A DNA stretch of 64,000 nucleotides. Source: Azolla caroliniana (taxonomy: Eukaryota > Plantae > Polypodiophyta). Below the pieces are notes generated by a model. The model was not told the origin of the DNA, ran no database searches, and saw nothing but the letters and a program-made list of their open reading frames with translations. Position numbers and translations under genes: made by a program. Shown in pieces: positions 19,640 through 55,800 of this stretch. The DNA lies in the NCBI GenBank assembly GCA_043228905.1, contig JBHGNT010000002.1, positions 5,518,001 to 5,582,000 on the forward strand, written 5' to 3'. Within the stretch, counting starts at the first letter, position 1, and each line of letters starts with the position of its first letter.

Positions 19640-19688
<49 letters not shown>

Positions 19689-20471: not shown

Positions 20472-20529
<58 letters not shown>

Positions 20530-26481: not shown

Positions 26482-27023
26482 TGTCGTGAAGAAAACCGTC
26501 CACGAGCGGAATCGGTGCACCGGAGCGTAGAAACCGACTCTTCATGCACGTGCGACTTAAGGAGATCCTAGGTAGATTCGGTAGGCAGGGAGTAAAGGGG
26601 GAACGGCTCCTTCCTTGCCTATAAAAGGAGGGAGACGAGGAGGGTAGAGGAATCGCGGAGAGTCGAGGACGAAGTGTTGTCGGATTGGGCGCGAAGGCTT
26701 CTCTCTCTCTCTCTCTCTGGTTCGCAGAATCCATAGCTTCCTTCTGTGCAGGTTTCGGGAGGCTCGCGCTGCTCTGAGGAATGCCCGAGTGCTTCCGGCA
26801 GCACCTCTAACCTGTTCCTGTCTTTCTGTGCGTTTACGAACAGGCATCGGCATCTGTCCGCCGGCCTGTTCGGTTGTAACCGACTTCGCGTTTTGTTATC
26901 TTTGTGTTCTTGTTGTTTGTCTTGGCAATACATACATACTTTCGTGTCTTTCTGTGTGGTTGTCCCATTCGCGTCTTTGCGTCGAAGGGCCGTGTCCTTG
27001 TGAATCTACGCTCGCACGTAGTG

Positions 27024-27079
<56 letters not shown>

Positions 27080-27142
27080 TCTTCGGTACAGGACCCCCGA
27101 GGTCCCGCCTCACTCCACGCATCCGCGAGGAATACCTCGATA
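26482..27142 (+). repeat. 3' LTR of element C
   Basis: Starts TGTCGTGAAG after the PPT and is homologous to the reverse complement of 31987-32644. Confidence 0.9.
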
Positions 27143-28327
27143 GCGGTCCGTTTCATCTTTCCTCAGCCGCGCGCCGGCGAGGCCTTCCAGCATTGCCGAC
27201 CAGAAACCGTCTTTACTCTCCTTTCAGGCCTCGCTGCCCCCGACCTGAATACCGGCTGACGCCGAGTAGTGGATGGCCTCCACGTGTCGGGCCGCTGCCT
27301 CTTCCATCAGTCTCTTCATACCTCCTCGCCCGTCGTTTCGGCTCAGGGCCCTCCTGGTGTCGCCAGCGTGCACCCGGCCTTCCCATAGGTACACCACCCG
27401 GTTTCTCAATGCCTCTGCGAAATCGCCGCAGTCCTTCCGAATGTGGCCGACCTCATCGCACCACATGCACCTGTTCCCCGCTGCCGGCCGTCGGTCACGA
27501 GCCGGATCGCCGCCTTCCCTTCGATTCTGGGCGATCTGGAGATCCTTTATCGCCCGCGTTGTCGTAGTGTATTTTGTACACTACGTGAAAAACGTATATA
27601 GTATTAGATTCAATAAAAAATGAAGAAATAGAAGAAAATAGCAAAATAAATGGAACATGCATAGGGCAAGATTCGAACCTTGCACCTCCATGTTAATAAT
27701 GTAATGTCTTACCATTACACTAGCATTTCATTAGTGTTAAAGCATAGATGTCCCACATAGAAAGCTAAATTCACGCTAGGATAAACATTAGAAAAACGCA
27801 TAACAAAAGAAAAAGTTACACATACACATCTAGCATGCATGATAAAAAACGCACAAGTTAGAAAAAAAGCATGATCACTTTAGATAAAGCATATAGTCTA
27901 TCTATAGGAAAAGCATGGGGTCTATAGTTAGAGAAAAAGCATGGATTACTAAGACTTCCTCATCACTACATAAGGATGGGAAGCACAATGTAATTGTGTG
28001 TGAAAAATATTTGGAAACTGGATATGTTTCTAAAAAACACCAATTAATAAACTATACTCGTGTGATTCACGAGAATTCTATATCATTCTCTTTCAACCGA
28101 AGTTTATATTCTTATATTCATATTGATTAATCTAATACAATACACTCGTGGGATTCACGAGTTTGCTATAACTCTTTCTTACAACATATTTATATTCTTA
28201 TTAGCCTTAAAACTCTCCTCTTCCTAGTCCAAAACCTCAGTGGTTCCCACCCGACTCACGCAAACGATCCGGAGCCGAAAGGCACGACACAGTTGGTGAA
28301 CCCGACGTGAAGGCGGGTGGCAAGGAG

Positions 28328-29611
28328 ATGGAGAATCAACAAGAGGCGATGAACATGATGATGATAATGTTTGAGCGGATGCAACAAGAACAACGTGCGA
28401 TGTCGGAGATGAAGGCGGCAGTAGAGCGGCTTCTGCGACGAAACGGGGAATTCAACGGTAAGGGTGTGTCACGCTACCTACATGAATATAAGGCGGAGAT
28501 GATGCAATATCGGATACCGGAAGGATTGCAAGTGATATCCTTTAGTCGGGTGGCCTCGGACGAACTACAAGAGAGAATCCACAAGATACAACAACAAAAC
28601 TCGACATGGGAGTCCTTTGAAGAAGCTTTACGGGAGGCATATGACTATGAGAGATGGACGGGACGAGATCGACGAGAATTCGACGAATGGGTGGCGTCGG
28701 AGAAGACTCACCGAAGTGCAACGCAAGCGTTCCTAGAGTTCGAGCATCGTTTTGCTCGACTCTCGGAGCGGGAACGAAGATTGGTGGGAGAAGATAAAGT
28801 CTTAATGTTCGTAAGATCGATCGATCGAAAAGAAAGGATGGACATCGGGATCGAACTCGAAGATGATGACGGTGCGAACGGTCTTACCGAGGATTGGGCC
28901 AAAGTCGAAAGGGTATGCCGAAGACATGATGAAAGGAAGCTGAGAATCTCGTCAACAACGACATGGCCCATGAAGGATGGTCGATTGAGGAAAAACGATG
29001 AAGCCAATATGAAGGCCGAAATACAACATGATGGTACCACGGGAGAAAGAGTGGAACAAGACACCCACTCGTCTTGTGAAAGAACGATGGCGAAGGATAA
29101 GGCCGATAATTCAAGTGTAGAAGGAAATTTCGGGATACAAGTGCCCGAGACATCGGGTCAAAAAGGGGTAAGCATAATAGATGTTTGCATAATTGATGCA
29201 GATAAAGAGTGTGAAGCGGATGTGATTAAGGAGGTAGCCACAAAAGACGAAATCGAATCGGAGGTGGCTATGGACGAATCAATGGCGGATTGCCATATCG
29301 AGACTTCCCCACCACTGATTCCAGAGACTCCGGCGGTTGCGATCGAAAGGCAACGTGAGACCGAAGAGACGGAAGGTGGCGGAGAGAAAACGAATGTCGA
29401 AGCCGACGAATACGATGAAGAGATAGCCGAGAAGAATGCTAAGGGTGAAACTACGAAAGAAGGTAATACCGAGGATTCCTACCCACTAATCCTAGAGACT
29501 TCGGCAGTTGTGTCCGAGAACCAACGTGAGACCGGAGAGACGGGAGGTGGCAGCAAGAAAGGTAAAGTCGGAAGCCGGTTTGGATGGAAGGTGATCCGGA
29601 CGGGATTCTGA
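28328..29611 (+). CDS. Gag-like protein of element D with acidic C-terminal tail
   Basis: Open frame (longest start 28307, first ATG 28328). EFNGKGVSRYL, FEHRFARLS and NGLTEDWAKVERVC align by eye with C gag RFSGKDATKYL, FEERFARLS and DGLTTDWAAVKRVC. Confidence 0.8.
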   Translation: MENQQEAMNMMMIMFERMQQEQRAMSEMKAAVERLLRRNGEFNGKGVSRYLHEYKAEMMQYRIPEGLQVISFSRVASDELQERIHKIQQQNSTWESFEEALREAYDYERWTGRDRREFDEWVASEKTHRSATQAFLEFEHRFARLSERERRLVGEDKVLMFVRSIDRKERMDIGIELEDDDGANGLTEDWAKVERVCRRHDERKLRISSTTTWPMKDGRLRKNDEANMKAEIQHDGTTGERVEQDTHSSCERTMAKDKADNSSVEGNFGIQVPETSGQKGVSIIDVCIIDADKECEADVIKEVATKDEIESEVAMDESMADCHIETSPPLIPETPAVAIERQRETEETEGGGEKTNVEADEYDEEIAEKNAKGETTKEGNTEDSYPLILETSAVVSENQRETGETGGGSKKGKVGSRFGWKVIRTGF

Positions 29612-29830
29612 TCCGAAAGAAAGCCGAACCGGGTAAAAGACGATTTGGCCAAAAGACGAACCGAAAGAAAGCCGAACCGGGTGAAAGGGGATTCAACCGA
29701 AAGACGACCTGAAAGAAAGCCGAACCGGGTGAAAGGGGATTCAACCGAAAGACGACCCGAAAGAAAGCCGAACCGGGCGAATGAGGATTCGGCCGAAAGA
29801 CGACCCAAAAGAAAGCCGACCCGAAAAGGG
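29610..29830 (+). repeat. ~48-bp tandem repeat inside element D
   Basis: Repeated ccgaaagaaagccgaaccgggtgaaaggggattcaaccgaaagacga units. Confidence 0.85.
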
Positions 29831-32375
29831 GTCGACTCGGTCAAAACCGATCGACTGAGTCTGACTTGGCCGAACGCGAATATGGATGGAGGCCGACCTA
29901 GCCGAAAGCCGATCGGACGAGACCGATCCGGAAAGAAGCTAATCCGACTCAACCGGAGGTTGGACCGGTCGAGGCTGGTGAAAACGAGGAAAAGAAAGCC
30001 AACCGAAACCGAAACCGATAGATCGAAACTGGGCCGGAAGGAGACCGACTCAATCGAAACCGAACAACCGATTCCGATTCGTCCTAATATGAATCCGATC
30101 GGAAGCCGATCAAACCGAAAGTCGATCGGACGAGAGCGATCCGGAAAAAAGTCAAGGTTGATGAAGACAAGAAAGAGGCCAGTAAAAGACACTACCACGA
30201 ATGACAAGGGCCAAGAATATGACGAGAGAGAACAAAGAATATGGTGGATCGGATGGCGACAATGGTTCGGGTGGAAAGAATGGATGTGCTCCAAATGGAG
30301 AGACAAAGTCAACATAACAAGAGAAGTCGAGGGTACTACGAGCCGGCAACGAAACCAATCGGGTAGAGACCGGACGGAGGAGACTAACAAACACCAACAA
30401 CTTCGGCACATACCGGAGGATGTGCGGGTTTGGAGGGGGTGAGTGTCGTAGTGTATTTTGTACACTACGTGAAAAACGTATATAGTATTAGATTCAATAA
30501 AAAATGAAGAAATAGAAGAAAATAGCAAAATAAATGGAACATGCATAGGGCAAGATTCGAACCTTGCACCTCCATGTTAATAATGTAATGTCTTACCATT
30601 ACACTAGCATTTCATTAGTGTTAAAGCATAGATGTCCCACATAGAAAGCTAAATTCACGCTAGGATAAACATTAGAAAAACGCATAACAAAAGAAAAAGT
30701 TACACATACACATCTAGCATGCATGATAAAAAACGCACAAGTTAGAAAAAAAGCATGATCACTTTAGATAAAGCATATAGTCTATCTATAGGAAAAGCAT
30801 GGGGTCTATAGTTAGAGAAAAAGCATGGATTACTAAGACTTCCTCATCACTACATAAGGATGGGAAGCACAATGTAATTGTGTGTGAAAAATATTTGGAA
30901 ACTGGATATGTTTCTAAAAAACACCAATTAATAAACTATACTCGTGTGATTCACGAGAATTCTATATCATTCTCTTTCAACCGAAGTTTATATTCTTATA
31001 TTCATATTGATTAATCTAATACAATACACTCGTGGGATTCACGAGTTTGCTATAACTCTTTCTTACAACATATTTATATTCTTATTAGCCTTAAAACTCT
31101 CCTCTTCCTAGTCCAAAACCTCAGTGGTTCCCACCCGACTCACACAAACGATCCGGAGCCGAAAGGCACGACAGCGTCAACTCCTCTAGCGCTGCTCCTC
31201 CGGACGAGCCATTGACCATGCTGGTCGAAGCCGGACCGGTTTCGAGCCATTCCCGGGTTTCTTCCCTTCGCACTTGCGGTGCCGGTTCAAGCCTCCTTGC
31301 TGTAATAGAGCCCGCACCAGCCGCCCCGTTGTCAGCCCATTCTCGCCGTTTGTCGAAACGGCCACAGACTCTCTTAACCGCAGCCCAGTCGGTTGTCAGC
31401 CCGTCTTCAATTTCTAGCAAGGAGCCGACTTGATCCCGGTCCCGCTCGTCCACCGACTTGACGAACAGTAGGACCCGGCTCGTATCCAGAATGGTTCGGT
31501 CAAGCGCCGAAAGGCACGCAAAGCGTTCTTCGAACTCCCGGAGGAGTGCCGACGCGTTTCTTCCTTTGCCGGGGGACTCCACCCATTCCATGAAGTCCCG
31601 TTTCGAAAGCCGGAGCGCGTCGTCCAGCCCATATTTCTCTAGGAGTCGGCCTTCGAACTCCTCCCAGGTACGGCTCTCCGCCCGTACCTCGACCACCTCC
31701 GCATGGATGCTCGGCATCGCCACTCGAGGGAACCCGGCAAGACGTCTCTCTTCCGGAATGTCCCGCATCAGCATTTCCGCCCCGTAGGACGCCAAATACT
31801 TCGTAGCATCCTTTCCGCTGAAACGGCCGATCGTACCGACGACCGCCTCAATGGCTCTGTCGAGGGCACCGGTGCCCTCGCGTGTGCTCAATATCCGATC
31901 CATGGCCGAAGCCATGGCCTCTGCAAGATCCGACCCCCTCATCTTCTGCTCTTCTGCCGCCTCTTTCACGTCGGGTTCACCAGATATGTCGTGGTATTCC
32001 TCGCGGATGCGTGGAATGAGGCGGGACCTCGGGGGTCCTGTACCAAAGAGTAAGAGAGAAAGAGAAGAGACCCACTACGTGCGAGCGTAGATTCACAGGG
32101 ACACGGCCCTTCGACGCAAAGACGCGAATGGGACAGCGACACAGAAAGACACGAAAGTATGTATGTATTGACAAGACAAACAACAAGAACACGAGGACAA
32201 CAAACACGAAGTCGGTTACAACCGAACAGGCCGGCGAACAGATGCTGATACCTGCTCATAAACGCACAGAGGGGAAAGAGTAGGTTGGAGGTGCTGCAGG
32301 AAGCACTCGGGCATTCCTCAGAGCAGCGCGAGCCTCCCGAAACCTGCACAGAAGGAAGCTATGGCATTTGCAACC

Positions 32376-32412
<37 letters not shown>

Positions 32413-32676
32413 CCTTCGCACGCAACCCGACAGCACTTCGTCCTCGACTCTCCGCTATCCTCTCCTCTTTCGCGTCTCCCTCCTTTTTATAGGCAGGGAA
32501 GGAGCCGTTTTCCCCTTTACTTCCTACCTACCGAATCTGCCCGCCTAGGATCTCCTATGTACAACATAAGGCGCACGTGCATGAAGAGCCGGTTCCTACG
32601 CTCTGGTGCACCGATTCCGTTTGTGGACGGTTTTCTTCACGACAACGTAGTGGGCTATTAATAGGGTATTAAACCG

Positions 32677-35600
32677 TTGCCACATGGCACATCATTCTAT
32701 TCTAGTACACGACGTGCACACACGCGGGTAAGAAAAACAGGCGCCAACATGCAACAAGAAAACCCCCACCGCATAGAGGTCTTCACATTTCGCGAACAGA
32801 GGAGTGCAAACACAGACAGGCGACTAAAGATCATTAGACGTGAGCCCACGCACACAGAGCCTCCTCACACACATCCCTCACCAACGCTCACCGACCTCGA
32901 AGAAGCCATGGACTGCCAAGCACTCTCTGAAGCAGCCAAGAAGTGGCTAAGGCAACACGGGTTAGAAGGTTTCCTCACGATCATGGAGGCGCCACTGCAC
33001 CAGGAGGCGGAGAAGATAGTAAAGGAAATCGACACAGAGCTGATCACGGAGGAGGCCATCCATGCTTTGATTGGCCTTCCGAAGGGGGTCATCTTCACTA
33101 TCGACAACCCTACCCCAGAGCAGCTCCAAAAATATTTTGGCGAATACTCTCTGGCCAGCAAGGCCTACAGGACACAGGGTGGCGAAGATACATTATTTAG
33201 AGAGATTGCCCATGTGCTCCATGAATTTGGACATGTATACCCCCGACCCCCGTGCATGCCTCAGAACCGAGCCGGCTTATTCATAGCAACATATGAAGGC
33301 GTGAAGGTGGATTGGCTGGTACTGATTGCGGACGGCCTCTGTGCGGCCATCGACTCTATAAGAGGCAAGGAGGGTCGGAAAATATGGACTGTAGTGGCAC
33401 AATGGCTCACCCTATTGGCGCCACCTATCGAGCCTGTCAAGACCACGAAGCGGGGGAGAACGATCGAAGGCACCCCGAAAACGGCTTCGAAACGGCAACA
33501 GTCGTTGGCCTCTAAGGCACCCAAAGGGAAGGCGGCCAACACGGACAAGGCGGCAAAAGAGCGCGCCAATAGGAAGCGGCAGGCGGAAACGCAGGGAGAC
33601 ACCGGCACGGCCAATCAAGACTAGATTTCACCGACCGGTTCAACAAGAGTCGGACCCCTTGGTAGCAAAAATCAATATCGGGACTCAAGAGGAGGAAGCT
33701 GAGGAGGAACCGTTAGAGCACCTCTAGCTGCACCAGAAGGCAAACACCGCAGAACAGGCCGGGGAGCTTTCGGACCCAAAGAAGAATGGAACGCCTCTAC
33801 TCCGCACTGAGCATCCTGCACCAAGGGTGGAACCGGAACCGGTTTGGACAGAACCGGTCACAGAGCTCCCTGCACAACAAGCTATACCGGCGGGTCAGGA
33901 TACGGCAAGACCCGAAATTCAAGCGCCGGCAGTACAGTTGCCTCCCGCACCGGCAGGTCAAGAGCAATCAAAGGTGGAGCGGCCAACAAAGGTGCAACCG
34001 GAACCAGAACGGCAAAGTGGTCACCAACCAGAGACAAAGTTGCAACTCGACGCAACCGGACAAGACCGACCACTGGCTAGCGGAACCAATAGCCAACCCT
34101 CCGTGCAGACGCAACAACAGGGCACCGACAGCCAATGGCTCCGATGGATTGGAGAACAGATTGCCGGAGTGGTGCACTACATAGAGGAGGAAGAGAAAGC
34201 GCAGATGGACCGGTTGCTAGTCACAGCCGGAGAACTAGAGACGGCCCGTTCGAGAATCCGGAGCCTAGAGCAAGACTTGGACCTGGACACAGAAGAATTG
34301 GCCAAAATGGCCTTAACCAGACCACAGATCCAAGCACTGGTGACTCCGGTAGATGTACAGAATAAAGACACACCAGCACCTGTGCATAGTAATAAGACCC
34401 CGGAGACGGAACCAGTCCCAGAGACAGTGGCGGCGCAAGCGAAAGAGCTGGCCGAATTGAAAGATGAACTGGCCGCACAAGAAGCATTACGCACCCGAGA
34501 AAGGGACTTGAAGAAAGCGGCAAAAGAAGAACTACAAAAGACTGCTGAGAACCTCCGCTGGGCAGAAGTGAATCTGCGGAAAGGACATCAGGCATATGAC
34601 CGGCTTAAGGAGGAGAAAGAGAAAGTGCTGCAAGAAAAGGATAAGCTACGATGGATGGCGGAAACGGACATTGAAAGACTTAAAGAAGCACTCCGTCAAC
34701 AGAAAGATCGGGAAGACCGTGCTCGCCGGCAACTCAACCAGAAGCTGAAGTAGAAGACCGATGATTTTGAGCACCTACACCGGGACTATAAGCACCTGGA
34801 TACGGAGCATAAGAAGCAACAGGAGAAGATGGCAAAGCTCTAGCAGGAAGTTCATCGAGCCGAGACAGCGCTAGCTAAAGAACGGGCTGAAAGAACAATG
34901 CTACTGGAGGAAGCCGCGCAGGAACGTATGGAGCTCCTAAGCAGCATTATGAAGAAAAGGAAAGAGTGACAATGGTATTACAGAGGTTGCAGAACACCTA
35001 CCAAAACCAATTGTCACATTACCGGGAGCAGGAGGCGGACACGGTGAAGCTGATCAAGCAATTGAAGGAAGAACGGCAAGCCGCGGAGAACAAATCGAAG
35101 ATGGGACTTGAGTGTATCCAGTTCATTGTCCATGCATGGAGGAACAAGACAAAACGCTTGATTGACGAAAGCTCCGCACAATGGTGGGACAAATGGGCAA
35201 AGCACATAACCGAGCTCCAGTTGCTAAGGGTGGCTACGGAAAACCGGCAGAAGGATGGCGACGACTGCTACATGCTAACAAAGGAGGACTTCACCGCCGT
35301 AAGAGATGAGTTAGCATAAGATTTTGTAACTCTGACGGAGGAATAGTCAGTAGTGGTCCGGCAACTGGTAGCACAACTAGATGATGATCGACTGGATGCT
35401 CAAATCCAGTTTGAAAGCTATGAGTGGACTAGGCTACGGCAAGAAGAAGCAAGGCAAGCGGCGACCGTCAACCTCAGTGATGAGGAGCCATCGCCGGGGC
35501 AAGGACCAGACGGAGACAAAGCCAAGGCAAGTCAACCAGAGTCAAATCCGGCAGAGCAGCTGACAGAGGAATCACCACCACAACCACCGGTACCGAGAGC

Positions 35601-35748
35601 CGAACAGATGCCACCCAAGGAGCAACAATCGGAGGAGCCGGAGCCGGAGCAACAGCAACCACAGCCACAACCGCAATAACAACAAATTCCCAAAGAACCA
35701 TTGGACACCCTGGAGCAGAGTATTATGGATATCTTGGACGAAGGCTAA
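32677..35748 (+). pseudogene. Disrupted extra ORF of an LTR retrotransposon 3' region (N-terminal globular domain plus long coiled coil)
   Basis: Colinear ORFs 32677-33624, 33827-34753, 34966-35319 and 35353-35679 end just before a PPT and LTR. No gag or pol motifs. Confidence 0.6.
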
Positions 35749-35848
35749 GGGCCGGATAGTGGGATTCGACGTACAAGGTACTATCCCACGGGCGTACCTT
35801 GTGTTACCCGACCGGCAAAGGAGTGAAAGACCAAAATGTGAGAGGGAT

Positions 35849-36244
35849 TGTTTATTCGGAATCTATATTAATTAAGTAGTTTATGAGACGTGAACAGACG
35901 GACCGGAATCGGTATGCCGATCCGGATCCAGTCCAGTTCCAAGCAGGTGCCGATTGGCACCATTTTGTACTCATCACCGGTGACCTATATAAAGGCCCGG
36001 TTACAATCTAAAACTTTGACGAATAATTAATAGAGCTTCTTGTTTTATCTTTAAGTGTTGATTACCATTCTGTGTTAATTGTTCTATCATACGCGTGTAT
36101 CAAGTCTAATGTCATATTGCTAAGTAACCAATTAAAGTCTGATTAATCGTTGAGTCTTAAGTTATCTCGCCGTAACACCCCTTTGGTGAAGTGTCTTCCG
36201 TAGACACCCTGTGTTAGGCCATTGTCCGGCCCTAAGGAATAACA
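35849..36244 (+). repeat. 3' LTR of element H
   Basis: Follows purine tract gtgagagggat. Termini TGTTTATTC...GAATAACA. TATA at ~35986. Directly abuts copia E protease sequence. Confidence 0.7.
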
Positions 36245-37821
36245 CTCCGACTTGCACAATCGGGTGAGGGGTGTCGTCTCCGGTTTCGACGATTCCCAGT
36301 TGTTTCGGTTTCTCCAAAAACGAGAACCACTCTTCGTGGCTCGTAATGTGGTTTGACGCTCCGGAATCAACACACCATACTTCCTCCGATTTGGAAGTAG
36401 TCTTCTTCATCAAGTTAGCCTTGTGCTTCATCACAAAGGTTGACCCCTTTCCGGTTTTCCCGGTTCCAAATCCTTCCGATCCTTCTATGTAGTGCAAGTT
36501 TTGCTAGTTTCCCTGTCCGGCCTTGCCGGATCCGGATTTGTCCGAATCGGCGTGCTTCTTCCAGCACTAGCATTCTCTGTGGCCTTTCTTGCCACAATAC
36601 CAGCATTCCGTGTCGGCCTTCCCTTGCCGGTTTTTACGGCTATTTTGACTCCACTTGCTCGTGGAGGGTCCGGAACTGCTGTTGACACTATCTCGGTGCC
36701 TTCGATTATACTCTTTCCGGCCGCCTCCATTGTGTGTTGACCCACCTTATCCTCCATGTGCAAGGGGTCGGCCCGCCTCCGTGTACAACATCCGGTTGTC
36801 CGATTGAGTGGTCCTCAACCCACTTGCGTGGTTTTATTCCACCATCAACATTGATTGTAAGTCGAAGAAGGACAGTGGCTTCTCCCGGGTGCAAATTGCC
36901 GTCCGGATTGGCCCGTACCGTTGTGTTAGATCACAAAGGCAGATTCGGACCATTTCGTCTTCGTCCACCATCACATTGATGGGCCCGAGTGCATCACAAA
37001 TCTCCATTATTTTGGTGGTGTACTCCATAACCAACATATCTCTCTATCGGTTGTTGTTCAGCTCTTGCCTGAGCTGCAACTTACGGGTTGTGGTACTTGC
37101 GATGAAAATCCTCCGAAGATTTTCCCGTGCCTCCTTCGGCATTTTTGCATCCTTGATGTAGTTGAGCATTTGATCGTGCACACAGGATGCGAGGTAGTAC
37201 AACACTCTGCTCGCTCCTTGTTCCCATGCTGGGAAGTCCTTGTGTGCCGGCTCCGGCGCTACATTGTTCATTACTGGTGCATTTTATATGACTAGGATGC
37301 ATAGTTGCTTCGATCGAGCTTTTCTGTGGGAAGCGAACTTGTCATACCTCTGTCCATCTTGGTTCTCTTCTGTTCTTCACCGAGTGTTAGGGTTTGTCTT
37401 CGAAAGCGTCTATAGGCTGCAGAGGAGTCTCAACCCTCGCGCTCTGATACCATGTGAAAGTTAATGTGCGGAAGCGTATGACAAACCGGCTCAACCGAAT
37501 ACCAACAAAACGTAGAGAAGAAGGTTTAATGGAGATCTTACACAGAGAATACATGGGAGAGACAGAGAGAGCAAAACATAAACTCAATTCAAAATGATAA
37601 TACACTCTGTACATAGAATGTGCTCAGAGAGAACTTTTATACAAGTCCATAAAGGAGTGACAGGTACTTCAATGCTCATCCGAGCGACTGGCACTGACTC
37701 CCAAAATTGTGCCTACGTACTAGGCTAGATTTGTAGGCTTCTAACGGCCTCCCGGTTTCAATCCGATCCGGCTCTGGCTTATTCAGCCGATCCGAATCCA
37801 GTTTAGCTTGCTTAGTCAACA
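36245..37821 (-). mobile_element. Element E: 5' part of a Ty1/copia (5' LTR, Met PBS, gag-PR), same family as G
   Basis: LTR 37453-37821. PBS TGGTATCAGAGC at 37441-37452. Gag TRKLQLRQEL and protease WCVDSGAS. Confidence 0.88.
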
Positions 37822-39005
37822 TCTCCCTAAGAGGATATCTTCTTCCTTGGTCCTCAATCACCAGTTCCTCCGTTTTTCTTCATCTGAATCTGATTCAAGG
37901 TCTTGATCGGTTCCAGTGTCTGATTCTTGTTCGGTTGGTCTGGTTCTTTGTCTGAATCCGACCGGTTCATCATGGTCTTCGGTTGGCATCCGTCTTCCAA
38001 CTGGATGTGTCCTAGCATCTTCCAATCGTTCTCTGTTGGTTGATCCGGAGTCCGATATCTTCTTCTTCAACTCCCAATAGGCAATAGTCTTGTCTTCCAT
38101 GAAGACTATGTCATGACTCTAGAAGACCTTCTTGTTGACCAAGTCCCACACTCGGTAGCCGAACTCATCATCGTCGTATCCAAGGAATATGCATGGTTGG
38201 GACTTCGGATCCAACTTTGCTCTCTTGTCCTTTGCGACATGCACGTAAGTGAGACAACCGAACACCTTCAGATGTTGGTAAGACAAGTCTTTACCAATCC
38301 ATACTCTCTGTGGTGTGTCTCCTTCCAAGGGTGCTAAGGGTGATTTGTTTATCACATAGGTCGTTGTCATAAGTGCCTCAACCCAAAACATCTTTGGTAA
38401 CTTTGCATGTGCTAGCATGCTCCATACTCTCTCCATTATGTTCTGGTTCATCCTTTCGGCCAATCCATTGAGCTCTGGTGTCTTCAGTACGGTGAATTCG
38501 AGCCAGATTCCCTTCGACCGGCAGTACACCTCGAACTGCCCCCAATATTCTCCTCCGTTGTCCGCTTGAACTGCCTTCAGCTTCCGGCCGGTTTCCCTTC
38601 CCACTCTCATGTGGAAGTCCTTCGTCTTCAGCAGTGAGACCCACAGCTTCTGGTTGTTATCGTCTATGAATGTCATGAAGTACTGTGATCCGGCATGGGA
38701 CTTCATGTCCACTTGGTATACATCGATATGCACAAGTTCCAGCGGTGCATTCCGTCTCATCGGTGGTCTCGATCGGAAAGAGGTTTGCTTTTGCTTATCA
38801 ACCAAGCAATCGGTGCACTTCTCAAGATACACGTCTTTCACCTCTAGAATGAGGTTATCTTCGGCAAGTCTTCTCATCCCTTTCTGGCTCATGTGGCACA
38901 ACCTCTTGTGCCATAGCTCACCAGCATTTTCAGACGCCATGTTCACTTCTTCCTGGCAAATCTGGGCATATAGAGTGTTGATCTTCCGCATATGATTTCC
39001 CGATT
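37822..39005 (-). pseudogene. Ty1/copia integrase fragment (Tork/Tnt1-like)
   Basis: LWHKRLCHMS, LELVHID, DNGGEY, NGLAERMN and CIFLGY. Confidence 0.88.
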
Positions 39006-39008
39006 GAT

Positions 39009-40107
39009 TTGCGGCTCAGAAAAGAGCCTCCATGGGGGCCAATTTATAACCTTTCACCCACGGAGTTAGAGGTTCTTCGGGAATATATCGATGAGAACTT
39101 GGTGAATGGGTTTATCCAACATTCAAGATCTCCTGCCGGCGCACCCATATTTTTCGTTAAGAAGAAAGATGGTTCGCTTCGTCTACTCGTGGATTATCGA
39201 GGATTGAATAAAGTAACTATTTGAAACCGATATGCTCTACCATTGATTTCGAGCCTTCTGGAACGCCTCAATGGAGGTAAGTATTTCACGAAGTTAGATC
39301 TTCGAGATTCTTACAATCTTGTTCGAATTCGTCCTGGGGATGAATGGAAGACTACTTTTCGTACTCGCTATGGCCATTTTGAGTATACAGTGTGCGAGAT
39401 GTACAATGTTTTTTAGGGTTCGCAAACTTTTATCGCAAGTTCATCAAAGATTATTCAAAGATCGTATTGCCCCTCACTCAACTGACACAAAAGAATCGAC
39501 CATTTGTGTGGAGTATAAATGCAAACTCTGCATTTGAAGGATTAAAGCAAACATTTACATCCGCACCAATTTTGATGCATGTTGATCCATTGAAGCGCTT
39601 TATACTGGAAGTTGATGCATCCGACTTCGCACTAGGAAGCGTATTATCCCAAATTAGCAATGATGGCCAATTGCACCCTGTGGCTTTTCATTCACGGAAA
39701 TTCGAAGCTGCAGAAATCAACTATCAGATTCACGACAAAGAGCTTCTTGCCATTGTGGATTCTTTTCAACAATGGCGTCATTTTTTGGAGGGTTCGTCTC
39801 AACAAATCATTGTCTATAATGATAACAAAAATCTAACGTACTTCCAAAGTGCTCGAGTAATGTATTATTAGTTATTACAATATATTTAGAGTATTCTAGA
39901 ACATTCTAGGATATTCCATGATTATATTAAATATCATAAATATCTAAAATATTGTAGAACATTCTAGAATACTCCATAAGGACCTATAAATAGGTGTCTA
40001 TTCATTCATCACAACTCATTCGGTTCAACACCAGTTTGTAGCCCCTTAGCCTACTCTTTGTAATCCTTGCTCTCTTATAATATAAACTCTCTTTCCATTT
40101 CTAGTGT

Positions 40108-40154
<47 letters not shown>

Positions 40155-40202
40155 CTTCTATTGTCATCTTATTTTTCTCTCTCCTATTCTCAAGTCACGA
40201 CA
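39009..40202 (+). mobile_element. Deleted A-family fragment (partial RT, RH, partial LTR)
   Basis: RT/RH nearly identical to A. 39860-40202 matches the A LTR and ends CACGACA. Confidence 0.85.
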
Positions 40203-40580
40203 CATTATAGTAAATCTCCATGGGGTGCACCAGTTCTCTTGGTTAAAAAGAAAGAGGGCACATGGTGTATGTGTATTAATTACCGACACTTGAATAAAGT
40301 GACAATCAAGAATTCGTATCCATTGCCCCGGGGTGACGATCTAATTGACCGTCTCCAGGGAGCTCAGTATTTTACGAAATTTGATCTCTGTACTGGCTAC
40401 CATCAAATTCGTATAAGTGAGGATGATGTTCCTAAAACGGCATTTCGTACACGCTATGGCCATTATGAGTTTTTGGTTATGTCTTCTCAATGCTCGACTA
40501 CATTTCAACAAGAAATGAATGACATTTTCCGAGAACAACTTGGAAAATTTGTCGTTATTTTCTTGGATGATATTTTAGTT
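40203..40580 (+). pseudogene. RT fragment duplicated from element F
   Basis: Nearly identical to 43365-43742. Confidence 0.9.
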
Positions 40581-46500: not shown

Positions 46501-46573
46501 GTTGTTACACTCCATCACAGTTTGTAGCTAACTCTAGACAAAGTGTATTATACCAACACAGGTGGCTTCAACA
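40581..46573 (+). mobile_element. Element F: decayed chromovirus (leader, gag, pol, 3' LTR); 5' boundary uncertain
   Basis: CVFCKKKGHTKEQC, LFDLGSSHNF, FLDD, RH, IN and degenerate chromodomain (FKITW...DATWE). PPT aagagggggag. LTR 46001-46573 (TGTT...CAACA). Confidence 0.85.
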
Positions 46574-47637
46574 TCTGGCTCGTCAGAGATGAGTCTAAGG
46601 AAGTTCGATGGATCGAACTTCAATTTCTAGAAGGAGCAGATGCAAGACTATTTAATAGTCAAGGGGAAAATTGACCCCATTGAGAATGAAGACCCTCCAG
46701 AAGGATAAAAGTCACTTGAATGGGAAAAGCTCGACAGAATCGTCCGAGCCACCATTCGAATGCACCTATCGGAGTCCGTGTACTTCACGGTGCAATCGTG
46801 TTCGACTACCTTCCAACTTTGGAAGACACTTTTGGACACTTACGAAAAGAAGTTCGTTGCCACCAAGATGCACCTGATTCAGTGCCTTTATAATCTTCGA
46901 ATGAAAGAGTCTGACTCGGTCCAGGCACACCTGAACGAGTACGAAAGCTTAAGCTCCCAAATTTTGGCCCAGGGGACAATTATCGAGGATGAACTAAAAG
47001 CAATGTTGCTTATGAGTAGTCTTCCTCCTTCGTGGGAAACTTTCGTCACAACCATGTGTAATGCGTCGACAGCTGCCGTCAAGTACTCTTCAGTCACAAG
47101 TGCAATTCTAACTGAAGCAGCTCGGACAAAATCGTTTGCTAACGATTCAGCCAACAACGCTTACGTAGTACAAGGTTCGACTAACCAATCGAATAGCCAT
47201 GGAAGAGATTCTTCACGGCAGCCGAACAATCAGCAAAGTCAGAGCAAGTCACGGGATAATCGAGTATGCAACTACTACAAGAAACCTGGACACATCAAAG
47301 CCGATTGTCGTGCACTCAAAGCCAACAACAATAAGGCTCAGCGATCCAAGCAGAAGGGTGGCCGACACGAGGAGATCAACTACATCGGTTCTTTGGTCGA
47401 AGTATTGATAAACGACCCTAATATACTATCAATTGAGAACCCAATCGAATCAAAAGTTTTGCTTACGACTGAAGAATCGAGCACATGGCTCTTAGATTCG
47501 GGTGTGTCTTTTCATGTGACTCATCATCGATCCCAATTTTGGTAATACACGGCCCGACATTCCGACTCATTTCGGGTAGGAAATTCACAACATTGCGACA
47601 TAATTGGAATCGGCATGGTAGAGCTCAACCTTGCAGG
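46574..47637 (+). pseudogene. Ty1/copia gag-protease fragment (Tork-like)
   Basis: KFDGSNFNF, LMSSLPPSWETF, degenerate CCHC and WLLDSG. Confidence 0.85.
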
Positions 47638-49150
47638 TGTCAGGAATAGTACTAAAACAGAGAGAGAATTAGTACTAGAGAAGGGAAGTACTATTAGTAC
47701 TAAGAGGACGGACTACGTAAGACTCACGATGTCGTGAAGATCCGTCACTAGGCGCGGATCCCGAGGCAGAACCGCCAAGGTTCTGGACCAGAAGGATCGA
47801 AGTTCGCACCAAGCTTAGTGAGAAAGTATTTAGGATAGATTGAGAGAGAGAAAGAGATTAAGATTAAACGCTTGACTTAGATTGAGAAATATTGATATGG
47901 CCAAGAGAGAGAGAGAGATCGAGATTAAGATTTTAACTCTTGATTTAAGAAACAAGATATATCATCAATGAATTTTCTTCTCATTAATTTCTTCATTCAT
48001 ACATGGATCCATAATACATTTTCATCCATCCTTTTATAGATGCCCCCATGCATATGATGCATGTTTGCCATTTGGCGCTCGTGTATTACATGTGGTGCAT
48101 GATAACCATGTCACTCGTTTTAGCTCTCACACATAAGAATTTACATGTAAAAGTGCGATGATAGAAATATAATTTAAACTAAATATCTTGGCTTAGTGGT
48201 AAGCCAATTGACTCCTAACTTGGAGGTGCAAGGTTTGAATCCTTACTTGCCCTCCTTGTATATGTATATATATATATTTATATATTTATATATTTATTTA
48301 TCTAGTCGTCGAACGCCGGTTCACCGGGCGATGTCGTCGCCTCGTCGACGCCGGATGCCCGTCGGTTACCTGTGGCCGCCGCCTCGCCGGCCGGTTCGCC
48401 GGATGTCATCGCCTCGCCAGTGCGCCGCCAGATGTCAGTTCCACCAGCTCGCTAGCTCCGTCGGATGTCGGTTCCGCCGGATCACCGGTTGCCGGTGTGC
48501 CACCGTCGCTTTGCCGCCGAATCACCGACTCCATCGCCGGTCCAGTTTTAGTTGGCCAAAACCTTTACGAGTGGCAAGGCCACCTCCACTCTTAGTTCAA
48601 GTTACCTTGAACTCTCTATGCTCCACACATAGACACAAAGATAATAGCTTTTGCTCTACCTTATATATGATGAGAGTCGTATTTATCGTGCCTATGTGGG
48701 ATATCTCACAATTTTCTCTTTTTCTTTCGCAACTTCTTACCCACATAAGTTGACACTTAGATGTCTGTTTCTTATGTAGTAAAGTGCACCTCTCCAAGAT
48801 CTTCGTCTTTTGTAATAAGATATTAAACTTACTTAGAATTAGTATATTCACTATTATTGTTTTATATGATTGACATTTGATTTCGTACGTCTTATGTGAT
48901 TTTCACACCATTGCCGAAAATCTTCACGACAACGAGAGAGAGATAGTGAAGGCGAGAGAGAGAGAGAGAGAGAGAGGATGATGATAACAGATGATATATT
49001 ATGTGAAGAGTAAGTACAAAATAGCTATGAGGCTTAAGACTGGCGTTGAACCAATTTGGTTCGAAATAATGCCTTGTGCCTCTTTTTATAGTGTTCTCAG
49101 GAATAGTCCTGAACCTTCTAGAATGTTCCAGAGAAATCTGGAATATACAC
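47638..49150 (-). repeat. B-family LTR (truncated), split by a solo LTR
   Basis: 47638-47729 and 48932-49150 match the reverse complement of the B LTR (tgtcagga..., ttgaaccaatttggttc, ttctagaatgttcc). Confidence 0.8.
47730..48931 (-). mobile_element. Solo LTR-like insertion of the TGTCGT-ended gypsy group (orientation inferred)
   Basis: 12-bp terminal inverted repeat TGTCGTGAAGAT/ATCTTCACGACA. 4-bp TSD ACGA (47726-29 and 48932-35). Minus-strand TATA at ~48035. Confidence 0.8.
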
Positions 49151-49810
49151 CACAAAGATCAAGAAAATTTGTGACTCACTCAGCCCCATCAACGTGATGG
49201 TGGACGAAGGCCCATTTTTGTTTCAATACCTTGAGGATGACAACAATCGATAAAAGGCTATAAAAGAAAAGAACATTTGCAAAACCAATCAATATTAATA
49301 ATGTTGAAATGAGAAAAAAAGGCCCCATTAATGAACAATGTCTTGAGATGAGGCATTGGGGCAAAAGTGATGAGAGTGGTCGATTATACACACTTTGCCC
49401 CCAAACAAGTTTGAGAGTTTGAGTATCACACTTTGATACAATGCTCGCCTTTGATCATATTTGGCCATGTTTTCCACACATCCTTAATTGACTCATCAAA
49501 AAAATTCCTAAACTCCATAAATAATTGATCATAGACTAGTTTGTCGGGACTAACAAGTATTATGTTACACTACTATATTCACTTTATTATGAATATTACT
49601 TTAATACCATTCATCAATTTTATCAAGATTTAAAATAGTTTACACTTAAAATTTTCAAAGAATTTCTACAGTCATCCAAAAGGATATTTTCAAGATAAAT
49701 TTATACACATGCAGATTATAGGTATAGGGGAATGCCCAAATCTAGACCTATAATCATCAATAGGACTATTTAGGGAAGATGATAAAATATGCTTTTGTAT
49801 TTGGTATTTG

Positions 49811-52800
49811 GGAGATATACACAGAGAGAGTAGAACACAAAGGCTATATTCAAAAACAATATGGACACTCTCTGTGTATACAACTGTGCTCAGTAGCACT
49901 ATTTATACAAGTCCTCATGGGACTGACAAAAGTACCGCGTACTTCAATGCTCACACGAGCATCTGACACTTACTACGAGACTATAACTACCTAGTAGTCT
50001 AAACTAATACTAGGCTTCCAATTACCGATTGGATACGGTTAACTGGCTCCCCAGCTCACCGGCTTACCGATCCGTCTCGCTCACTGGCTCAGGCTTATCC
50101 AGCCGATCCGGCTCCAGTTGAGCTTGCCGCTCAACACTCCCCCTCAAGCTCAACTTGAGGTTGGATCCTAGTGTCAACCTCTGTGGCATTCGGTTCTTCC
50201 AACCGACTTCTCCTGGCGTCACTCTGCCTTGCTTGCGCTCCTCGTCCGGTCCGGTTCTGTTTGCCGCGACCCCTCTTGTTCTGCGCACCTCGACCTCCTC
50301 GGTTGGCTTGTCTGCTCAACATGCCCAATTCAGCTCCCTTGCTGTTGTGACTTTGGCGCGTTCCAGTTCGCCGATTCCTTCGTGTTGGCGTCGACTTTCG
50401 CTGCCTTCTCGTCCTCTTGGCCTTGAGTTGATCCGGTTCTTCTGAATCTGTTTGTTGAACCAAATCGATTGTCTTTGATTCGTTCTAGCTCTTGTCCGAA
50501 TCGGTTGCTCCCGATTCGTCTTCTGGTTCCAAGCCCTTCACCACATCGAACCATGTCCGGGTCTTGGCCTTCTTCCTTCGGTCAGCTCTATCCTTCTTGA
50601 CTCTGCCACCGTTGCCGCTTGTTCCAACTTGTTTGGACGTGTTGACTCCCCTTGTCGACTTGGCTCCTTTTTTCTTCTTGACTCTCCCTTCGTCGGTTCT
50701 TCCCTCACCGACACAATCGGCAGTCTCTTTGCCTTTGCCCGTTCTCCCCCTCAAGTGTGGCACGTCGAGATGTTGAACACCAAGCATTTCGGTGAAGTGT
50801 TGCAACTTGTCCGATACGAGTGGTTTGGTGAAGATGTCGGTAACTTGCCAATCCATGTGAACATACCGAAGTTCAACCTCACCGCTCAGGAAACGCTCAC
50901 GCACGAAGTGATAGTGCACTTGTATGTGCTTTGTGCGAGCATGGAATACGGGGTTCTTAGCGAGTTGCATGTTGCTTATGTTGTCGCAGTAGACCAGAAT
51001 CGGGGTCGGTACCTCGATCCGTAGGTCTTGTAGTAATCGTCGAAGCCAAATGGCTTCACAGGTGGCAATGGTAGCGCCCCGATACTCAGCCTCAGTGCTC
51101 GACAGAGCAACTGTTGGCTGCTTTTTGCTGCTCCACGCAACAGCCGCGCTACCTAGGGAAAACATGTAACCAGAGGTTGATCGGCGATCCGATGCATCAC
51201 CGGCCCAGTCGGCATCTGTGTAACCGACCAGCTCTTCGGGTATACCGCGCCGGTATAACAGGCCCCGGTCCTTCGTGCCGCTTACATATCACAGTATCCG
51301 ATGCGCGCACTGAAGGTGCTCCACGGTCGGCTTCTGCATGAATTGACTTATCATTCTAACCGGATAGCTGATGTCGGGTCACGTGATAGTCAAGTAAATA
51401 AGGCTTCCGACAATTTGTCGGAACCGTTGCTCGTTGTAGGCCGATCCGGAGTTGGGACGAAGCTTTTGGTTCCGGTCCAAGGGTGTGGAGACAGGTTGGC
51501 ATTCTGTCATGCCGAACTTGTACAGCATATTCAAGACGTAATGTCGTTGTGAGAGCAATATGCTGTCAGGGGTTCGGATCACCTCAATCCCAAGAAAATA
51601 ATGAAGGTCCCCTAGGTCCTTCATCTCAAATGCGTCTGACAACTGGGACTTGACGCGGTTGACTTCTGGAAGACCCGGTCTGGTGATGACTAAATCATCA
51701 ACATATAACAGGATACATACCGGACCGGCTGAGCCTTGCCGGATGAACAATGAAGAGTTGGACTTGGAGGCCGCAAACCCCATCTTGCACAACTGATGCG
51801 TGATCTTCGCATTCCAAGCTTGAGGGGCTTGCTTCAGGCCGTACAACGACTTCTTCAGCCGGCATACCGTCGACTTGTTCATCTCCGATTGAAAACCGGA
51901 GGGCGGAGTCATAAAGACTGCTTCTTCAAGATCACCCTGAAGAAACGCATTCTTCATATCCATCTAGTGAAGATGCCACCCTCTTGCTGCAGCAACCGCC
52001 AGCACCACACGAACCGTCGTCATCTTAGCTACCGGAGCGAAGGTCTCGTCGTAGTCGATTCCGTGGGTCTGCGCGTATCCCTTCGCCACTAACCGAGCCT
52101 TCTACCGGTTAATTGAACCGTCGGCGTTGTACTTTACCTTGTACACCCACTTGCATCTAATCGGTTTACAGTGACAGGGAGGGTCAACTAGGTCCCATGT
52201 CTCGTCGACATCAAGTGCCCGCATTTCTTCCTCCATAGCGGCACGCCAATTTGCGTCCTTTGCCGCTTCTGCGTAGCTCTCCGGCTCACGCACTTCTGCC
52301 ACCTTAGTCATGTACGCATAGTGATGCGCCATGTACTCATTGTACCCGTACCGCGTGAAGGGATCCTTCTGGCGGGTGGACCATCATAACTCTCTGTTAC
52401 CTGGTTTGAGGCCCTTTTGGTCGGTTCAGTCTTCGTTGCCGAAGATCTGCCTTTCTCCTTGCCGGAGTCGGATGCATACCGATCCGACTCATTGTTGCCA
52501 ATTTCGAATTCCGACATCTTTTTCTTCCCTTTCTCTTTGCGCGTGAACCGTCTCCTTGGTTCCTTGCGCTGGGAGAGCACGACAGAGTCTCCACTACTCG
52601 CTGGTTCCTCATCGGACTGGTCAAATTGACTCAGTCTCTCGTTCGGCCCACTCAACCGAAACGATTCCGGACTCTCATCCTGAGTCCACGTTTCATCATC
52701 ATTTACCTAGGCCGGTTCAGGCTCACTAGCCTCATCGTCCGGCATCGGGTCGGATTCGGAAGTCGGAGCCGGTAAGGAGTACCACGATGCCGATTCATCG

Positions 52801-55800
52801 AACTCGACATCTCAACTAACTTGGACCTGCTTTGTCCGGGGGTTATAACACTTATAACCCTTTTGCTCTTGAGCATAGCCGATTAGGATGCATTTTTCCG
52901 ATTTTGCATCTAGCTTCCTCCGCTTCTCATCCGGTACATGCACATATGCAATGCTGCCAAAGATCTTAAGGTGTCTCAAATTTGGCTTTCGCCCGAAATA
53001 CAACTCGTGAGCTAACACCTTGTCACCGATCTGATTCTGGATGTAGACAGCCGTTCGGACTACCTCCGCCCAGTAGAATTTGGGCATGCTCTTCTCCTCC
53101 AGCATTGCCCTTGCCGCATCAATAAGCGACCGGTTCTTCCTCTCGACAACACCGTTCTGTTGCGGTGTGTATCTGTAGCTGAACTCTCGCCGAACTCCCT
53201 TTTGCTGCAGATAACTATTGAATTGGCCGGAAAAGTATTCTTTTCCGCCATCCAACCGTAGGCATTTGATCTTACTCTCCTATTCCCGTTCCACCATGCT
53301 TTGGAGACTCCGGAAACACTCGAAGACTTCAATCTTCTGCTCAATGAGGTAGATCCATGCGTGCCGCGTATAGTCGTCGATGAAGGAGACGAAATATCGA
53401 CTCCCACCAAGACTAACATTCTGTGTCGGTCCCCACACATCCGAATGGATAAGGTCGAGCTTGTTACGGCTCCGGTTACATTCGGTAGGGAATGGAAGCC
53501 GGTGTTGCTTCCTAAGTTGGCAGGCTTCACATACTTGGGCCTTCCGGCCGCTGAACTTCGGCAAACCGAAAACAACTTGTTTCGTTTGCAAGTCTTGAAG
53601 CCTCCGGTAATTGACGTGGCCTATCCGCTTGTGCCACAGGTCAATGTCCAATTCGACCTTCTGTCCTTTTGCAAACAGAGCAGTGCCGACGTCATTGGTG
53701 TCGAGGATAAACATCCTCCCGTCTCTGCGCCCTTGTCCGACCGATACTAGGTTCTTCGTGATTGTCGGAACGTGTAATACGTTCATCAGCTTCCCCTTCT
53801 GTCTGACGTGGCTCAAAGGGACTTCTCTAACGTGCACGATTGGGTGAGTGTCATCTCCGGTTTCGACTACTCCTGGTTGATCCGGTTTCTCCAAAAAGGA
53901 GAACCACTCTTTGTGGCTCGTCATGTGGTTTGACGCTGTCGTAGTGTAATTCGCACACTACGTGAAAAATTACATTTTTGGTTTCTCCGGATAGGATATG
54001 GAGTACCCAGTGAGAAACGGATGAAGAAGGCCGGTGAGAGTCGATGAGAAATGGACGAAGAGGACCGGTAAGAAGGATCCAGTAAGAACCGGATAAAGAA
54101 AACTGACAAGAACCAGATGAAGCAGAACCGGCAAGAGCCGGATGAAGAAGGCCGGTGAGAGTCTCTCACTAGATGAAGAGACATATTTGTAAATAGAAGA
54201 AAGTATAAAATTATAGATTACATGTATAAGGCAAGAATCGAACCTTGCACCTCCATGTTAATAATGTTAAGCCTTATCATTATACTAGCGTATTATGAAT
54301 TTTAAAGTTATACTAAACTTTATCCCATGTAAAATTTCTAGACATGCATGGTACAAAAAGTTATTCATGTATAGACACTCGAGTTAGAAGAAAAGTTGAG
54401 ATAGAAAGCTAATCATGCACATGCAGTGTGCATGAAAACTAAAGATAGGAAAAGCATGATGCTTGCATGTGATAAACTTAGACTCTTCCAACACTATATA
54501 AGGAAGAGAGAAAGATGTATAGAGGTTGTTGATTATTTTACAAGGATTGGGATCAATCTAATAGATTCGTGGGATTCACGATTTTTTTTTCCATCTATTT
54601 CTCTCTTACATTCTAAGTATCAATTAATACACTATACTCATGGGATTCACGAGTTTCATATCTTCTTTCAAATATTTCTCTTTCTTGCAATCGATTCATA
54701 AGGAGCCTTATCTCATATTCTTCTTTCTCCTAGTCCAAAACCTCAGCAGTTCCCACCCGACTCATGCAACGATCCGGAGCCGAAAGGCACGACAATGCAC
54801 CGGAATCAACATACCACACTTCCTCCGATTTGGAAGTGGTCTTCTTCATGGAGTTCACCTCGTGCTTCATCACCAAGGTTGGCCTGTTACCGTTCTTGGA
54901 TCCTCCCGATCCCTTCGCGTAGTGTGAGCTTTGCCGGCCATCCTTGCTGGCCTTGCCGGATCCAAATTTGTCTGAATCGGCGCGTTTTCTCCAACACTCG
55001 CTTTCTTTGTGGCCTTTTTGCCACAGTACCAGCATTCCGTTGCAGTCTTCTCTTGCCGTCTTCCGATGCCACCATTACTCCCCCTGCTCCCAGAGGGTCC
55101 GGAACTGCTGTCACCACATTCTCTGTGCCTTTGTTCCTGGTCTTGTCGGCCGTCTCTATTGCGTGCCGACCCGCTTCATCCACCACGCCCACAGGACCGA
55201 TCTGATTCCCTATACAGCATCCGGTTGTCAATGGGTGCACTAGTTGACACACCGGCATGGTTCTCCTCTACAAGGAGCATCGACTGTAAGTCGAAAAATG
55301 ACGGCGTATTCTCCCTTGTACACACCGCCGTTCGGAACACCTGAACTTAGACACCAGGCCCCCAAGATAGACTTGTTCCATCTCGTCTTCCTCTACGGTA
55401 ATGTTTATAGAGGCAAGTGAGTCACATATCTCTTTGATCCGGGCCGTGTAATCTGCCACCGACATGTCCTTCTGTTGGACATTGCTCAACTCCTGTCGGA
55501 GTTGCAACTTCCGGGCAGTAGTGCTCGCGGCGAAAACCTTCTTCAGGTTTCCCCAAGCCTCCTTTGGCGTCTTGGCGTCTCGGATGTGGCTCAGCAGCTG
55601 GTCTCCGACACTGGTCGCGAAGCAGTACATCACTCTGCTTGCCGATTGTTCCCACACTGGGAAATCCTTATGTGCCACATCAGGCACTGTTTCGTTGACT
55701 CCTTCGATGAAACTCCAGTAGCCATGCCCAAGCAGGTACTGGTGCATCTTGTACGACCAAGATGCATAGTTGGATCTGTCGAGTTTCTCCACAGGGAGCG

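What the first reader, a model, noticed from the sequence alone, without database searches (positions are those of the whole stretch)
27143..54798. Gypsy group with TGTCGT...ACGACA ends inserts at 4-bp sites centred on CpG (5 of 5)
Seen: complete TSDs GCGT (D, 27556-59/31174-77), ACGC/ATGC (53933-36/54795-98) and ACGA (47726-29/48932-35). One-sided flanks are GCGG (C, 27143-46) and ACGT (C', 32645-48). All are N-CG-N and 4 bp, whereas A and B here have 5-bp TSDs without CpG. All five targets lie inside other retrotransposons, and the C integrase has no chromodomain. Inference: the integrase may read CpG (possibly methylated CpG) directly, steering several LTR families into silenced TE DNA without a chromodomain.
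Basis: partly seen in the sequence, partly recalled or inferred. Interest (0 to 1): 0.85.

Follow-up and report, generated by a model that had tools for sequence, protein, structure and literature searches.

The report
Known CpG-targeting Phygy retrotransposons
These plant jumping genes do sit in four-base target sites centred on a CG pair, but that habit is already published for the Phygy retrotransposon group, to which they likely belong, and nothing here shows that they sense DNA methylation.

Summary
All five flanks are N-CG-N at the stated places; empty-site paralogues and public contigs fix the duplication at 4 bp. Related elements in public metagenome contigs gave 22 of 23 CG-centred junctions against 4.4% CpG in the flanks.

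It is already in print. Neumann et al. 2019 (PMC6317226) report for 186 Phygy elements a 4-bp NCGN TSD, mostly a tRNA-Trp primer site and no extra domain. The window's elements match these features; a tree with REXdb references could not be built.

The methylation idea has no support here: 85% of the window's CpGs lie in TE DNA, so 5 of 5 in TEs has p≈0.44. CG-centred targets are also described for Drosophila errantiviruses and Ginger1.

Small additions: the rule extends to a host that is likely not Physcomitrella and sharpens to V-CG-B; the integrase position matching foamy-virus Ala188 is acidic in 98 of 98 relatives.

The scan noted NCGN TSDs before in a fungal genome (e1-10582392) and Phygy elements in this genome (e1-10618240).

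The parts
21004..27142 (+). Element C: Ty3/Gypsy gag-PR-RT-RH-INT with 3' LTR; 5' end lost at the N gap 20904-21003; carries stops and frame breaks
23331..26408 (+). Open stretch of C pol (RT, RNase H, integrase); no chromodomain, no extra RNase H
25683..25685 (+). Glu codon three residues after the second catalytic Asp, aligned to PFV Ala188; acidic in 98 of 98 relatives
26482..27142 (+). 3' LTR of C (TGTCGT...CTCGATA), behind a purine tract
27143..27146 (+). One-sided target flank of C, GCGG; host is gag of C'
27143..32644 (-). Element C': 5' LTR 31987-32644, primer site, truncated gag; host of D and of C
31967..31982 (-). Primer-binding site of C', tRNA-Trp type
32645..32648 (+). One-sided target flank of C', ACGT
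27560..31173 (+). Element D: non-autonomous gag-only element, 730-bp LTRs with 729 of 730 identical, TSD GCGT/GCGT
28294..28309 (+). Primer-binding site of D, tRNA-Trp type
47730..48931 (-). Solo LTR E (1202 bp), TSD ACGA/ACGA at 47726-29 and 48932-35, inside a B-type chromovirus LTR
53937..54794 (+). Solo LTR F (858 bp, related to the D LTR), TSD ACGC/ATGC at 53933-36 and 54795-98, inside a Copia element
21608..21611 (+). Empty-site paralogue of the D target (ACGC once)
36356..36359 (+). Empty-site paralogue of the F target (ACGC once)

Best explanation
The five ends belong to chromodomain-less Ty3/Gypsy retrotransposons, likely of the Phygy lineage, that sit in 4-bp duplications centred on CG, and their integrase likely picks that CG step by its sequence and bendability, without a need for methylation. 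Shown: 4-bp TSD, central CG, tRNA-Trp-type primer site, no chromodomain or extra RNase H, V-CG-B consensus in relatives. From the literature: intasomes that make 4-bp duplications kink the target at a central pyrimidine-purine step, and integrase residues contact bases around it. Inferred: this lineage narrows YR to CG through integrase-DNA contacts; candidates are the conserved C-terminal-domain loop (the region that carries Arg329 in PFV, not mapped residue by residue here) and the acidic residue at the Ala188 position. Inferred: the gag-only element D borrows integrase in trans, recognised through the shared LTR ends. Inferred: pile-up in TEs follows from where CpGs are. TE DNA here holds 85% of them, and the element's own coding DNA is about 10% CpG, so it is its own richest target; selection against insertions in genes likely adds to this.
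For: TSDs and empty sites. 22 of 23 outside junctions CG and 1 TG; T at position 0 in 1 of 23, A at +3 in 0 of 23, as the 4-bp retroviral rule describes (PMC4422553 passages). Phygy row of Neumann's Additional file 5: 186 elements, 4 bp 100% (NCGN), tRNA-Trp 81%, no extra domain. Primer site matches a published tRNA-Trp probe at 13 of 14 letters behind TGG. DUF4100 in the gag of C and of Riccia relatives. Integrase closest to PFV and Ty3 by sequence and fold, with no further domain. YR-only model rejected, P = 2e-15. CpG share in TEs 0.85. CGCG targets in Drosophila errantiviruses and CCGG/CCGT in Ginger1 show that Gypsy-type integrases have reached CG-centred sites more than once.
Against: No tree with REXdb Phygy references (the FASTA supplement was too large to read), so the lineage name rests on features. 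E and F are solo LTRs, assigned by LTR similarity only. The estimated length of C (about 7 kb) is just under the published 7.7-10.0 kb. E's site reads TCGT in LTR orientation, an exception to V-CG-B. In PFV and HIV the Ala188/Ser119 position reads bases outside the TSD, so it cannot alone explain the central CG. The candidate loop has pLDDT under 50 in the model. Nothing here excludes a methylation effect.
Confidence: 0.75

Rival explanations
1. The integrase reads or is strongly helped by 5-methyl-CpG, which would direct a chromodomain-less lineage into silenced DNA.
For: All five window targets are in TEs. TE DNA here shows C>T and G>A excess among copies, as expected for methylated DNA (table 1). 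At least 8 of 23 outside flanks match TE DNA in a small reference set. Phygy is reported as enriched at liverwort centromeres (PMC12885004 passage). A 1992 paper on CpG methylation and retroviral integration in vitro exists (seen only as a reference title; text not held).
Against: 5 of 5 in TEs is expected at p = 0.44 from CpG share alone. Flank CpG density is like that at random CpGs. No methyl-reader domain in Pfam scans or the model. Drosophila errantiviruses take CGCG in a host that, from recall, has almost no CpG methylation. Decay such as ACGC/ATGC arises after insertion and says nothing about the site at insertion.
Confidence: 0.15
2. A host tethering factor or chromatin state brings the intasome to TE-rich DNA, and the CG rule is only the local choice within it.
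For: Reported centromere enrichment and frequent nesting of Phygy in Tcn1 in Physcomitrella (PMC6911290 passage).
Against: No regional enrichment beyond CpG share is visible in this window; many outside flanks are CpG-poor (0.3-2%); no tether was identified.
Confidence: 0.07
3. The pattern is chance, or an artefact of shifted ends of 5-bp TSDs.
For: Five sites only, two one-sided, pattern chosen after the fact; one LTR end is decayed.
Against: Empty-site paralogues and net 862-base joints give 4 bp; the independent set is 22 of 23 (P = 4e-30 at each flank's own CpG rate); the same rule is published for 186 elements.
Confidence: 0.01

Closest known systems
Phygy clade, non-chromovirus Ty3/Gypsy (Neumann et al. 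2019, PMC6317226; passages and Additional file 5 read)
   Same: 4-bp NCGN TSD, tRNA-Trp primer site, no chromodomain, no aRH, short element with gag-pol filling the inside.
   Different: Defined from Physcomitrella patens; the host here is likely another plant (no near-identical named hit for its SDR or PPR gene). C is a little shorter than the published range. A gag-only derivative (D) and several LTR families share the rule here.
TatI clade (same paper)
   Same: 4-bp TSD and tRNA-Trp primer site.
   Different: TatI carries an extra RNase H between protease and RT; none was found in C or five relatives. No NCGN rule is given for TatI.
Drosophila errantiviruses with CGCG targets (PMC5408687, passages)
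   Same: Gypsy-type integrase with a 4-letter palindromic target centred on CG in one subgroup.
   Different: Insect elements, fixed CGCG rather than NCGN.
Ginger1 DNA transposons (PMC2836005, abstract and passages)
   Same: Gypsy-like integrase, TGTNR ends, 4-bp TSD CCGG or CCGT/ACGG.
   Different: DNA transposons with TIRs and no RT; narrower target.
Prototype foamy virus intasome (PMC4005685, PMC4422553, PMC4176367; passages)
   Same: Closest solved integrase; 4-bp TSD, central YR kink, T disfavoured at 0 and A at +3.
   Different: PFV takes any YR weakly and has a neutral Ala188; here CG is near-absolute and the position is Glu or Asp.

Membership tests
Phygy | 4-bp TSD with NCGN motif | tested here: met
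   3 full TSDs and 2 one-sided flanks; 22 of 23 outside junctions
Phygy | Primer site complementary to tRNA-Trp | tested here: met
   Sites at 28294 (+) and 31982 (-); 13 of 14 letters match a published vertebrate tRNA-Trp probe; the host's own tRNA was not seen
Phygy | Ty3/Gypsy order with no chromodomain | tested here: met
   Pfam on C and five relatives; median 75 residues after the GPY-type motif in 87 sequences; model and fold search
Phygy | No aRH domain and no extra ORF | tested here: met
   No second RNase H hit at E up to 0.5; only 73 bases lie between the pol stop and the 3' LTR; the 5' part of C is in the gap
Phygy | Length 7.7-10.0 kb | tested here: inconclusive
   5' end of C is lost; rough estimate about 7 kb from C plus C'
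Phygy | Falls in the Phygy branch of the RT-RH-INT tree | not testable with these tools
   REXdb FASTA too large to read. Own RT tree groups C with unnamed and Riccia relatives, far from the window's chromovirus B (28.8% identity)
TatI | aRH between protease and RT | tested here: not met
   Protease-RT spacer of C and five relatives has no RNase H hit
Chromovirus (Tcn1, Galadriel) | Chromodomain at the integrase C-terminus | tested here: not met
   Absent in C, present in element A of the same window
Methyl-CpG-reading integrase (proposed) | Preference for methylated over unmethylated CpG | not testable with these tools
   No methylation data or assay; indirect tests gave no support

The most novel reading that the evidence does not exclude
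Phygy-type integrases, all with an acidic residue at the foamy-virus Ala188 position and a conserved C-terminal loop, read methylated CpG in the target itself. That would be a chromodomain-free way for a retrotransposon lineage of seed-free plants to home in on silenced DNA.
Probability: 0.13. Interest if true: 0.75.

Novelty: new member of a known kind. Interest (0 to 1): 0.2.

Why it matters
As it stands this confirms, in another host and across several LTR families, a target rule published as one sentence and a table cell in 2019; a search for NCGN with retrotransposon returned only that paper on the subject. Neumann et al. name Phygy as the one exception to sequence-blind insertion among plant LTR lineages, so it is a handy natural case for asking how an integrase narrows a weak bending preference to one dinucleotide. 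The acidic Ala188-equivalent and the V-CG-B, C-at-minus-1 profile give concrete leads. If methylation did matter, it would be a new targeting route, but nothing here points that way.

Tried and rejected
No whole genome is held, so no genome-wide TSD logo for the host. The primer-site pattern found nothing in viral contigs. No RNA holder was listed; this says nothing on expression. Contigs laid on the D 3' end left loose ends behind 31173 (16, 21, 5, 12 contigs) and behind 31177 or 31178 (10, 9, 3, 10), which fits CG-centred flanks at other copies, but 41 rows were hidden and the aligner's end rules are unknown, so it is not counted as evidence. No named Physcomitrium sequence turned up among the 120 listed Pol hits or the members listed from 10 clusters. 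Host identity stayed open: best named hits are ferns at 58% (SDR) and up to 50% (PPR), with unnamed proteins at 77-95% for the SDR. The Atlas look-up of the ORF at 32749-33621 returned nothing usable, and Pfam gave no convincing family for it. Rfam did not detect the tRNA-like stretch near 35755-35799. Rows dropped before the 23-junction count: L012 (contained in L013); 18 LTR starts behind a purine tract and 6 apparent starts that are LTR ends beside the primer site read backwards (L049, L053 minus, L088, L108, L120, L121), of 45 start rows; 2 of 4 non-primer ends (L011, a decayed primer site; L091, likely an internal tandem repeat, flank TCGA); 95 primer-side ends. Before these drops the raw count was 23 CG of 31. 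GingerRoot (PMC6839031, abstract and passages) was checked and is unrelated (6-bp TSD, no motif). PMC7466625 passages give no TSD data. Searches for a methyl-CpG-reading retrotransposon integrase listed nothing on point; the library lacks most subscription journals.
Full report
1. The observation. The duplication is 4 bp. The gag of C is a paralogue of the D host and has ACGC once at 21608-11; a second Copia copy has ACGC once at 36356-59 for the F site. Contigs of four public runs join across F; the 862-base skip appears in 6, 7, 10 and 4 contigs, and every listed joint with known letters between nets 862 = 858 + 4. These are likely other copies of the host Copia, not proven empty alleles. 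For C, the paralogue shows that host sequence runs up to 27143 (3 of 4 letters match), so GCGG is host DNA in register.

2. More than chance. With CpG rates of 1.9-10.6% beside the five sites, P(5 of 5 CG) is 5.7e-7, or 2.2e-4 for any shared dinucleotide class. None of 7 junction sides of other LTR elements in the window has CG in that register. LTR starts and ends were called by similarity to reference ends without regard to the flank. After dropping internal junctions (listed under Tried and rejected; raw count 23 of 31), 23 genomic junctions remain: 22 CG and 1 TG, the decay product. Flank CpG is 4.4%; P = 4e-30 at each flank's own rate. T occurs at position 0 in 1 of 23 and A at +3 in 0 of 23, giving V-CG-B; E, read in LTR orientation, is an exception (TCGT).

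3. What the elements are. C is a Ty3/Gypsy with gag (weak DUF4100 hit), protease, RT, RNase H and integrase and no chromodomain. C' is a truncated copy of the same family on the minus strand (about 95% identical inside). D carries a related gag but no pol. F is related to the D LTR; E, on the minus strand, begins like the LTR of L001 (28 of 30) and shares patches with LTRs that precede the same primer site. The primer site of C' and D matches a published tRNA-Trp probe at 13 of 14 letters behind TGG. Pol relatives number 187 at E up to 0.001; the named ones among the 120 listed are from Riccia sorocarpa (up to about 65% identity) and one from Adiantum. An RT tree of 25 rows (23 of 24 chosen relatives, C and B) keeps C with them and far from chromovirus B. 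The host is a land plant and likely not Physcomitrium patens, since neither host gene has a near-identical named hit; other scan notes call it a likely fern, which I could not settle.

4. It is in print. Neumann et al. [quoted passage not shown] Jedlicka et al. (PMC6911290, passages; author name from recall) confirm mostly 4-bp TSDs and frequent nesting of Phygy in Tcn1. A liverwort genome paper (PMC12885004, passages) reports Phygy there, enriched at centromeres. TatI shares the TSD length and primer but needs an extra RNase H, absent here. Additional files 1 and 3 of Neumann (element table and sequences) were too large to read; they would allow the tree test and may hold more on target sites.

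5. How it likely works. Known: integrases that make 4-bp duplications bend the target at a central pyrimidine-purine step, disfavour T at 0 and A at +3, and contact bases through PFV Ala188 and Arg329 (PMC4422553, PMC4005685, PMC4176367; passages). The integrase of C is closest to PFV and Ty3 by sequence and by fold (model pLDDT 77) and shows no further domain. Bending alone is not enough: CG is 19% of YR steps in the flanks but 22 of 23 targets (P = 2e-15). So some read-out of CG is inferred. Leads: the residue aligned to Ala188 is Glu in 87 and Asp in 11 of the 98 relatives (of 120) that cover the integrase, whereas the window's chromoviruses have Pro and retroviruses have neutral compact residues there; and the loop before the GPY motif is strongly conserved (Q84, H82, K90, F89 of 98). 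The first position reads bases outside the TSD in PFV and HIV, and the loop is poorly modelled, so neither is shown to read CG.

6. Methylation and steering. Not shown. By my rough annotation, TE DNA outside the inserted elements holds 1532 of 1806 CpGs (85%; 71% of bases), so five hits in TEs has p = 0.44. CpG density beside the 23 outside junctions (median 3.7%) does not differ from that at 1798 random CpGs of the window (median 4.3%, p = 0.68); the hosts differ, so this is weak. Eight of 23 flanks match TE DNA by nucleotide search of a small reference set and one more by protein search; the rest are unclassified. CG-centred targets are also known for Drosophila errantiviruses (PMC5408687, passages) and Ginger1 (PMC2836005, abstract and passages); that Drosophila has almost no CpG methylation is from recall. 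In favour of the idea: TE copies here differ mostly by C>T and G>A, so most candidate CpGs are probably methylated, and a 1992 in vitro study on CpG methylation and retroviral integration exists (title only). Searches listed no paper on a methyl-CpG-reading retrotransposon integrase.

7. Earlier scan notes. None near this place or by sequence. One note reports NCGN TSDs in a fungal genome and gave the Ginger1 lead (e1-10582392); one names Phygy elsewhere in this genome (e1-10618240); several describe the tRNA-like site that helped me read the host of C'. They are unchecked notes and are not counted as support.

8. Verdict. Sequence-based CG choice without need for methylation: 0.75. Methyl-CpG reading: about 0.13-0.15. 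Interest 0.2.

Noticed in passing
window 35755-35799, before an LTR-like end at about 35800-36244: The host of C' has no purine tract before its LTR; a short stretch that looks like a tRNA 3' end split by a small hairpin sits there, as other scan notes describe for a Gypsy group of this genome (e1-10598439 and others). Rfam did not detect it; the tRNA likeness is from those notes and recall.
   Followed up: partly
window 32665-35750: Long, broken ORF region of unknown family (no convincing Pfam hit) in the 3' part of that element; likely an extra ORF.
   Followed up: partly
window 27560-31173: D is a very young gag-only element (729 of 730 LTR letters identical) with a 48-bp tandem array at 29610-29849 where pol would be.
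   Followed up: partly
L033, L034, L071, L008; window C and D: Frequent insertion into the lineage's own coding DNA (4 of 23 outside junctions, 2 of 5 in the window), whose CpG density is about 10% per base against 1.7% in the gene region.
   Followed up: partly
23 junctions: C is enriched one base outside the TSD (11 of 23, p = 0.0085, not corrected for many tests); a PFV R329E mutant is described as preferring C at that place.
   Followed up: no
window 10515-20843 and 14095-19790: Chromovirus A (chromodomain, 5-bp TSD TATGT/TATGC) with chromovirus-type B nested in its gag (TSD CTAGA).
   Followed up: partly
window 38980-40580: Patchwork of A-type and other Gypsy RT/RNase H pieces with a truncated LTR (39860-40202) inside a Copia element.
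   Followed up: no
window 58124-58948 (+) and 59459-62122 (-): Host genes: a short-chain dehydrogenase and a long PPR reading frame with a 306-bp repeat period; a 223-bp tandem repeat follows at 62611-63271.
   Followed up: partly
window 20904-21003: Assembly gap of 100 N between the flank of A and the gag of C; the order across it is not assured.
   Followed up: no
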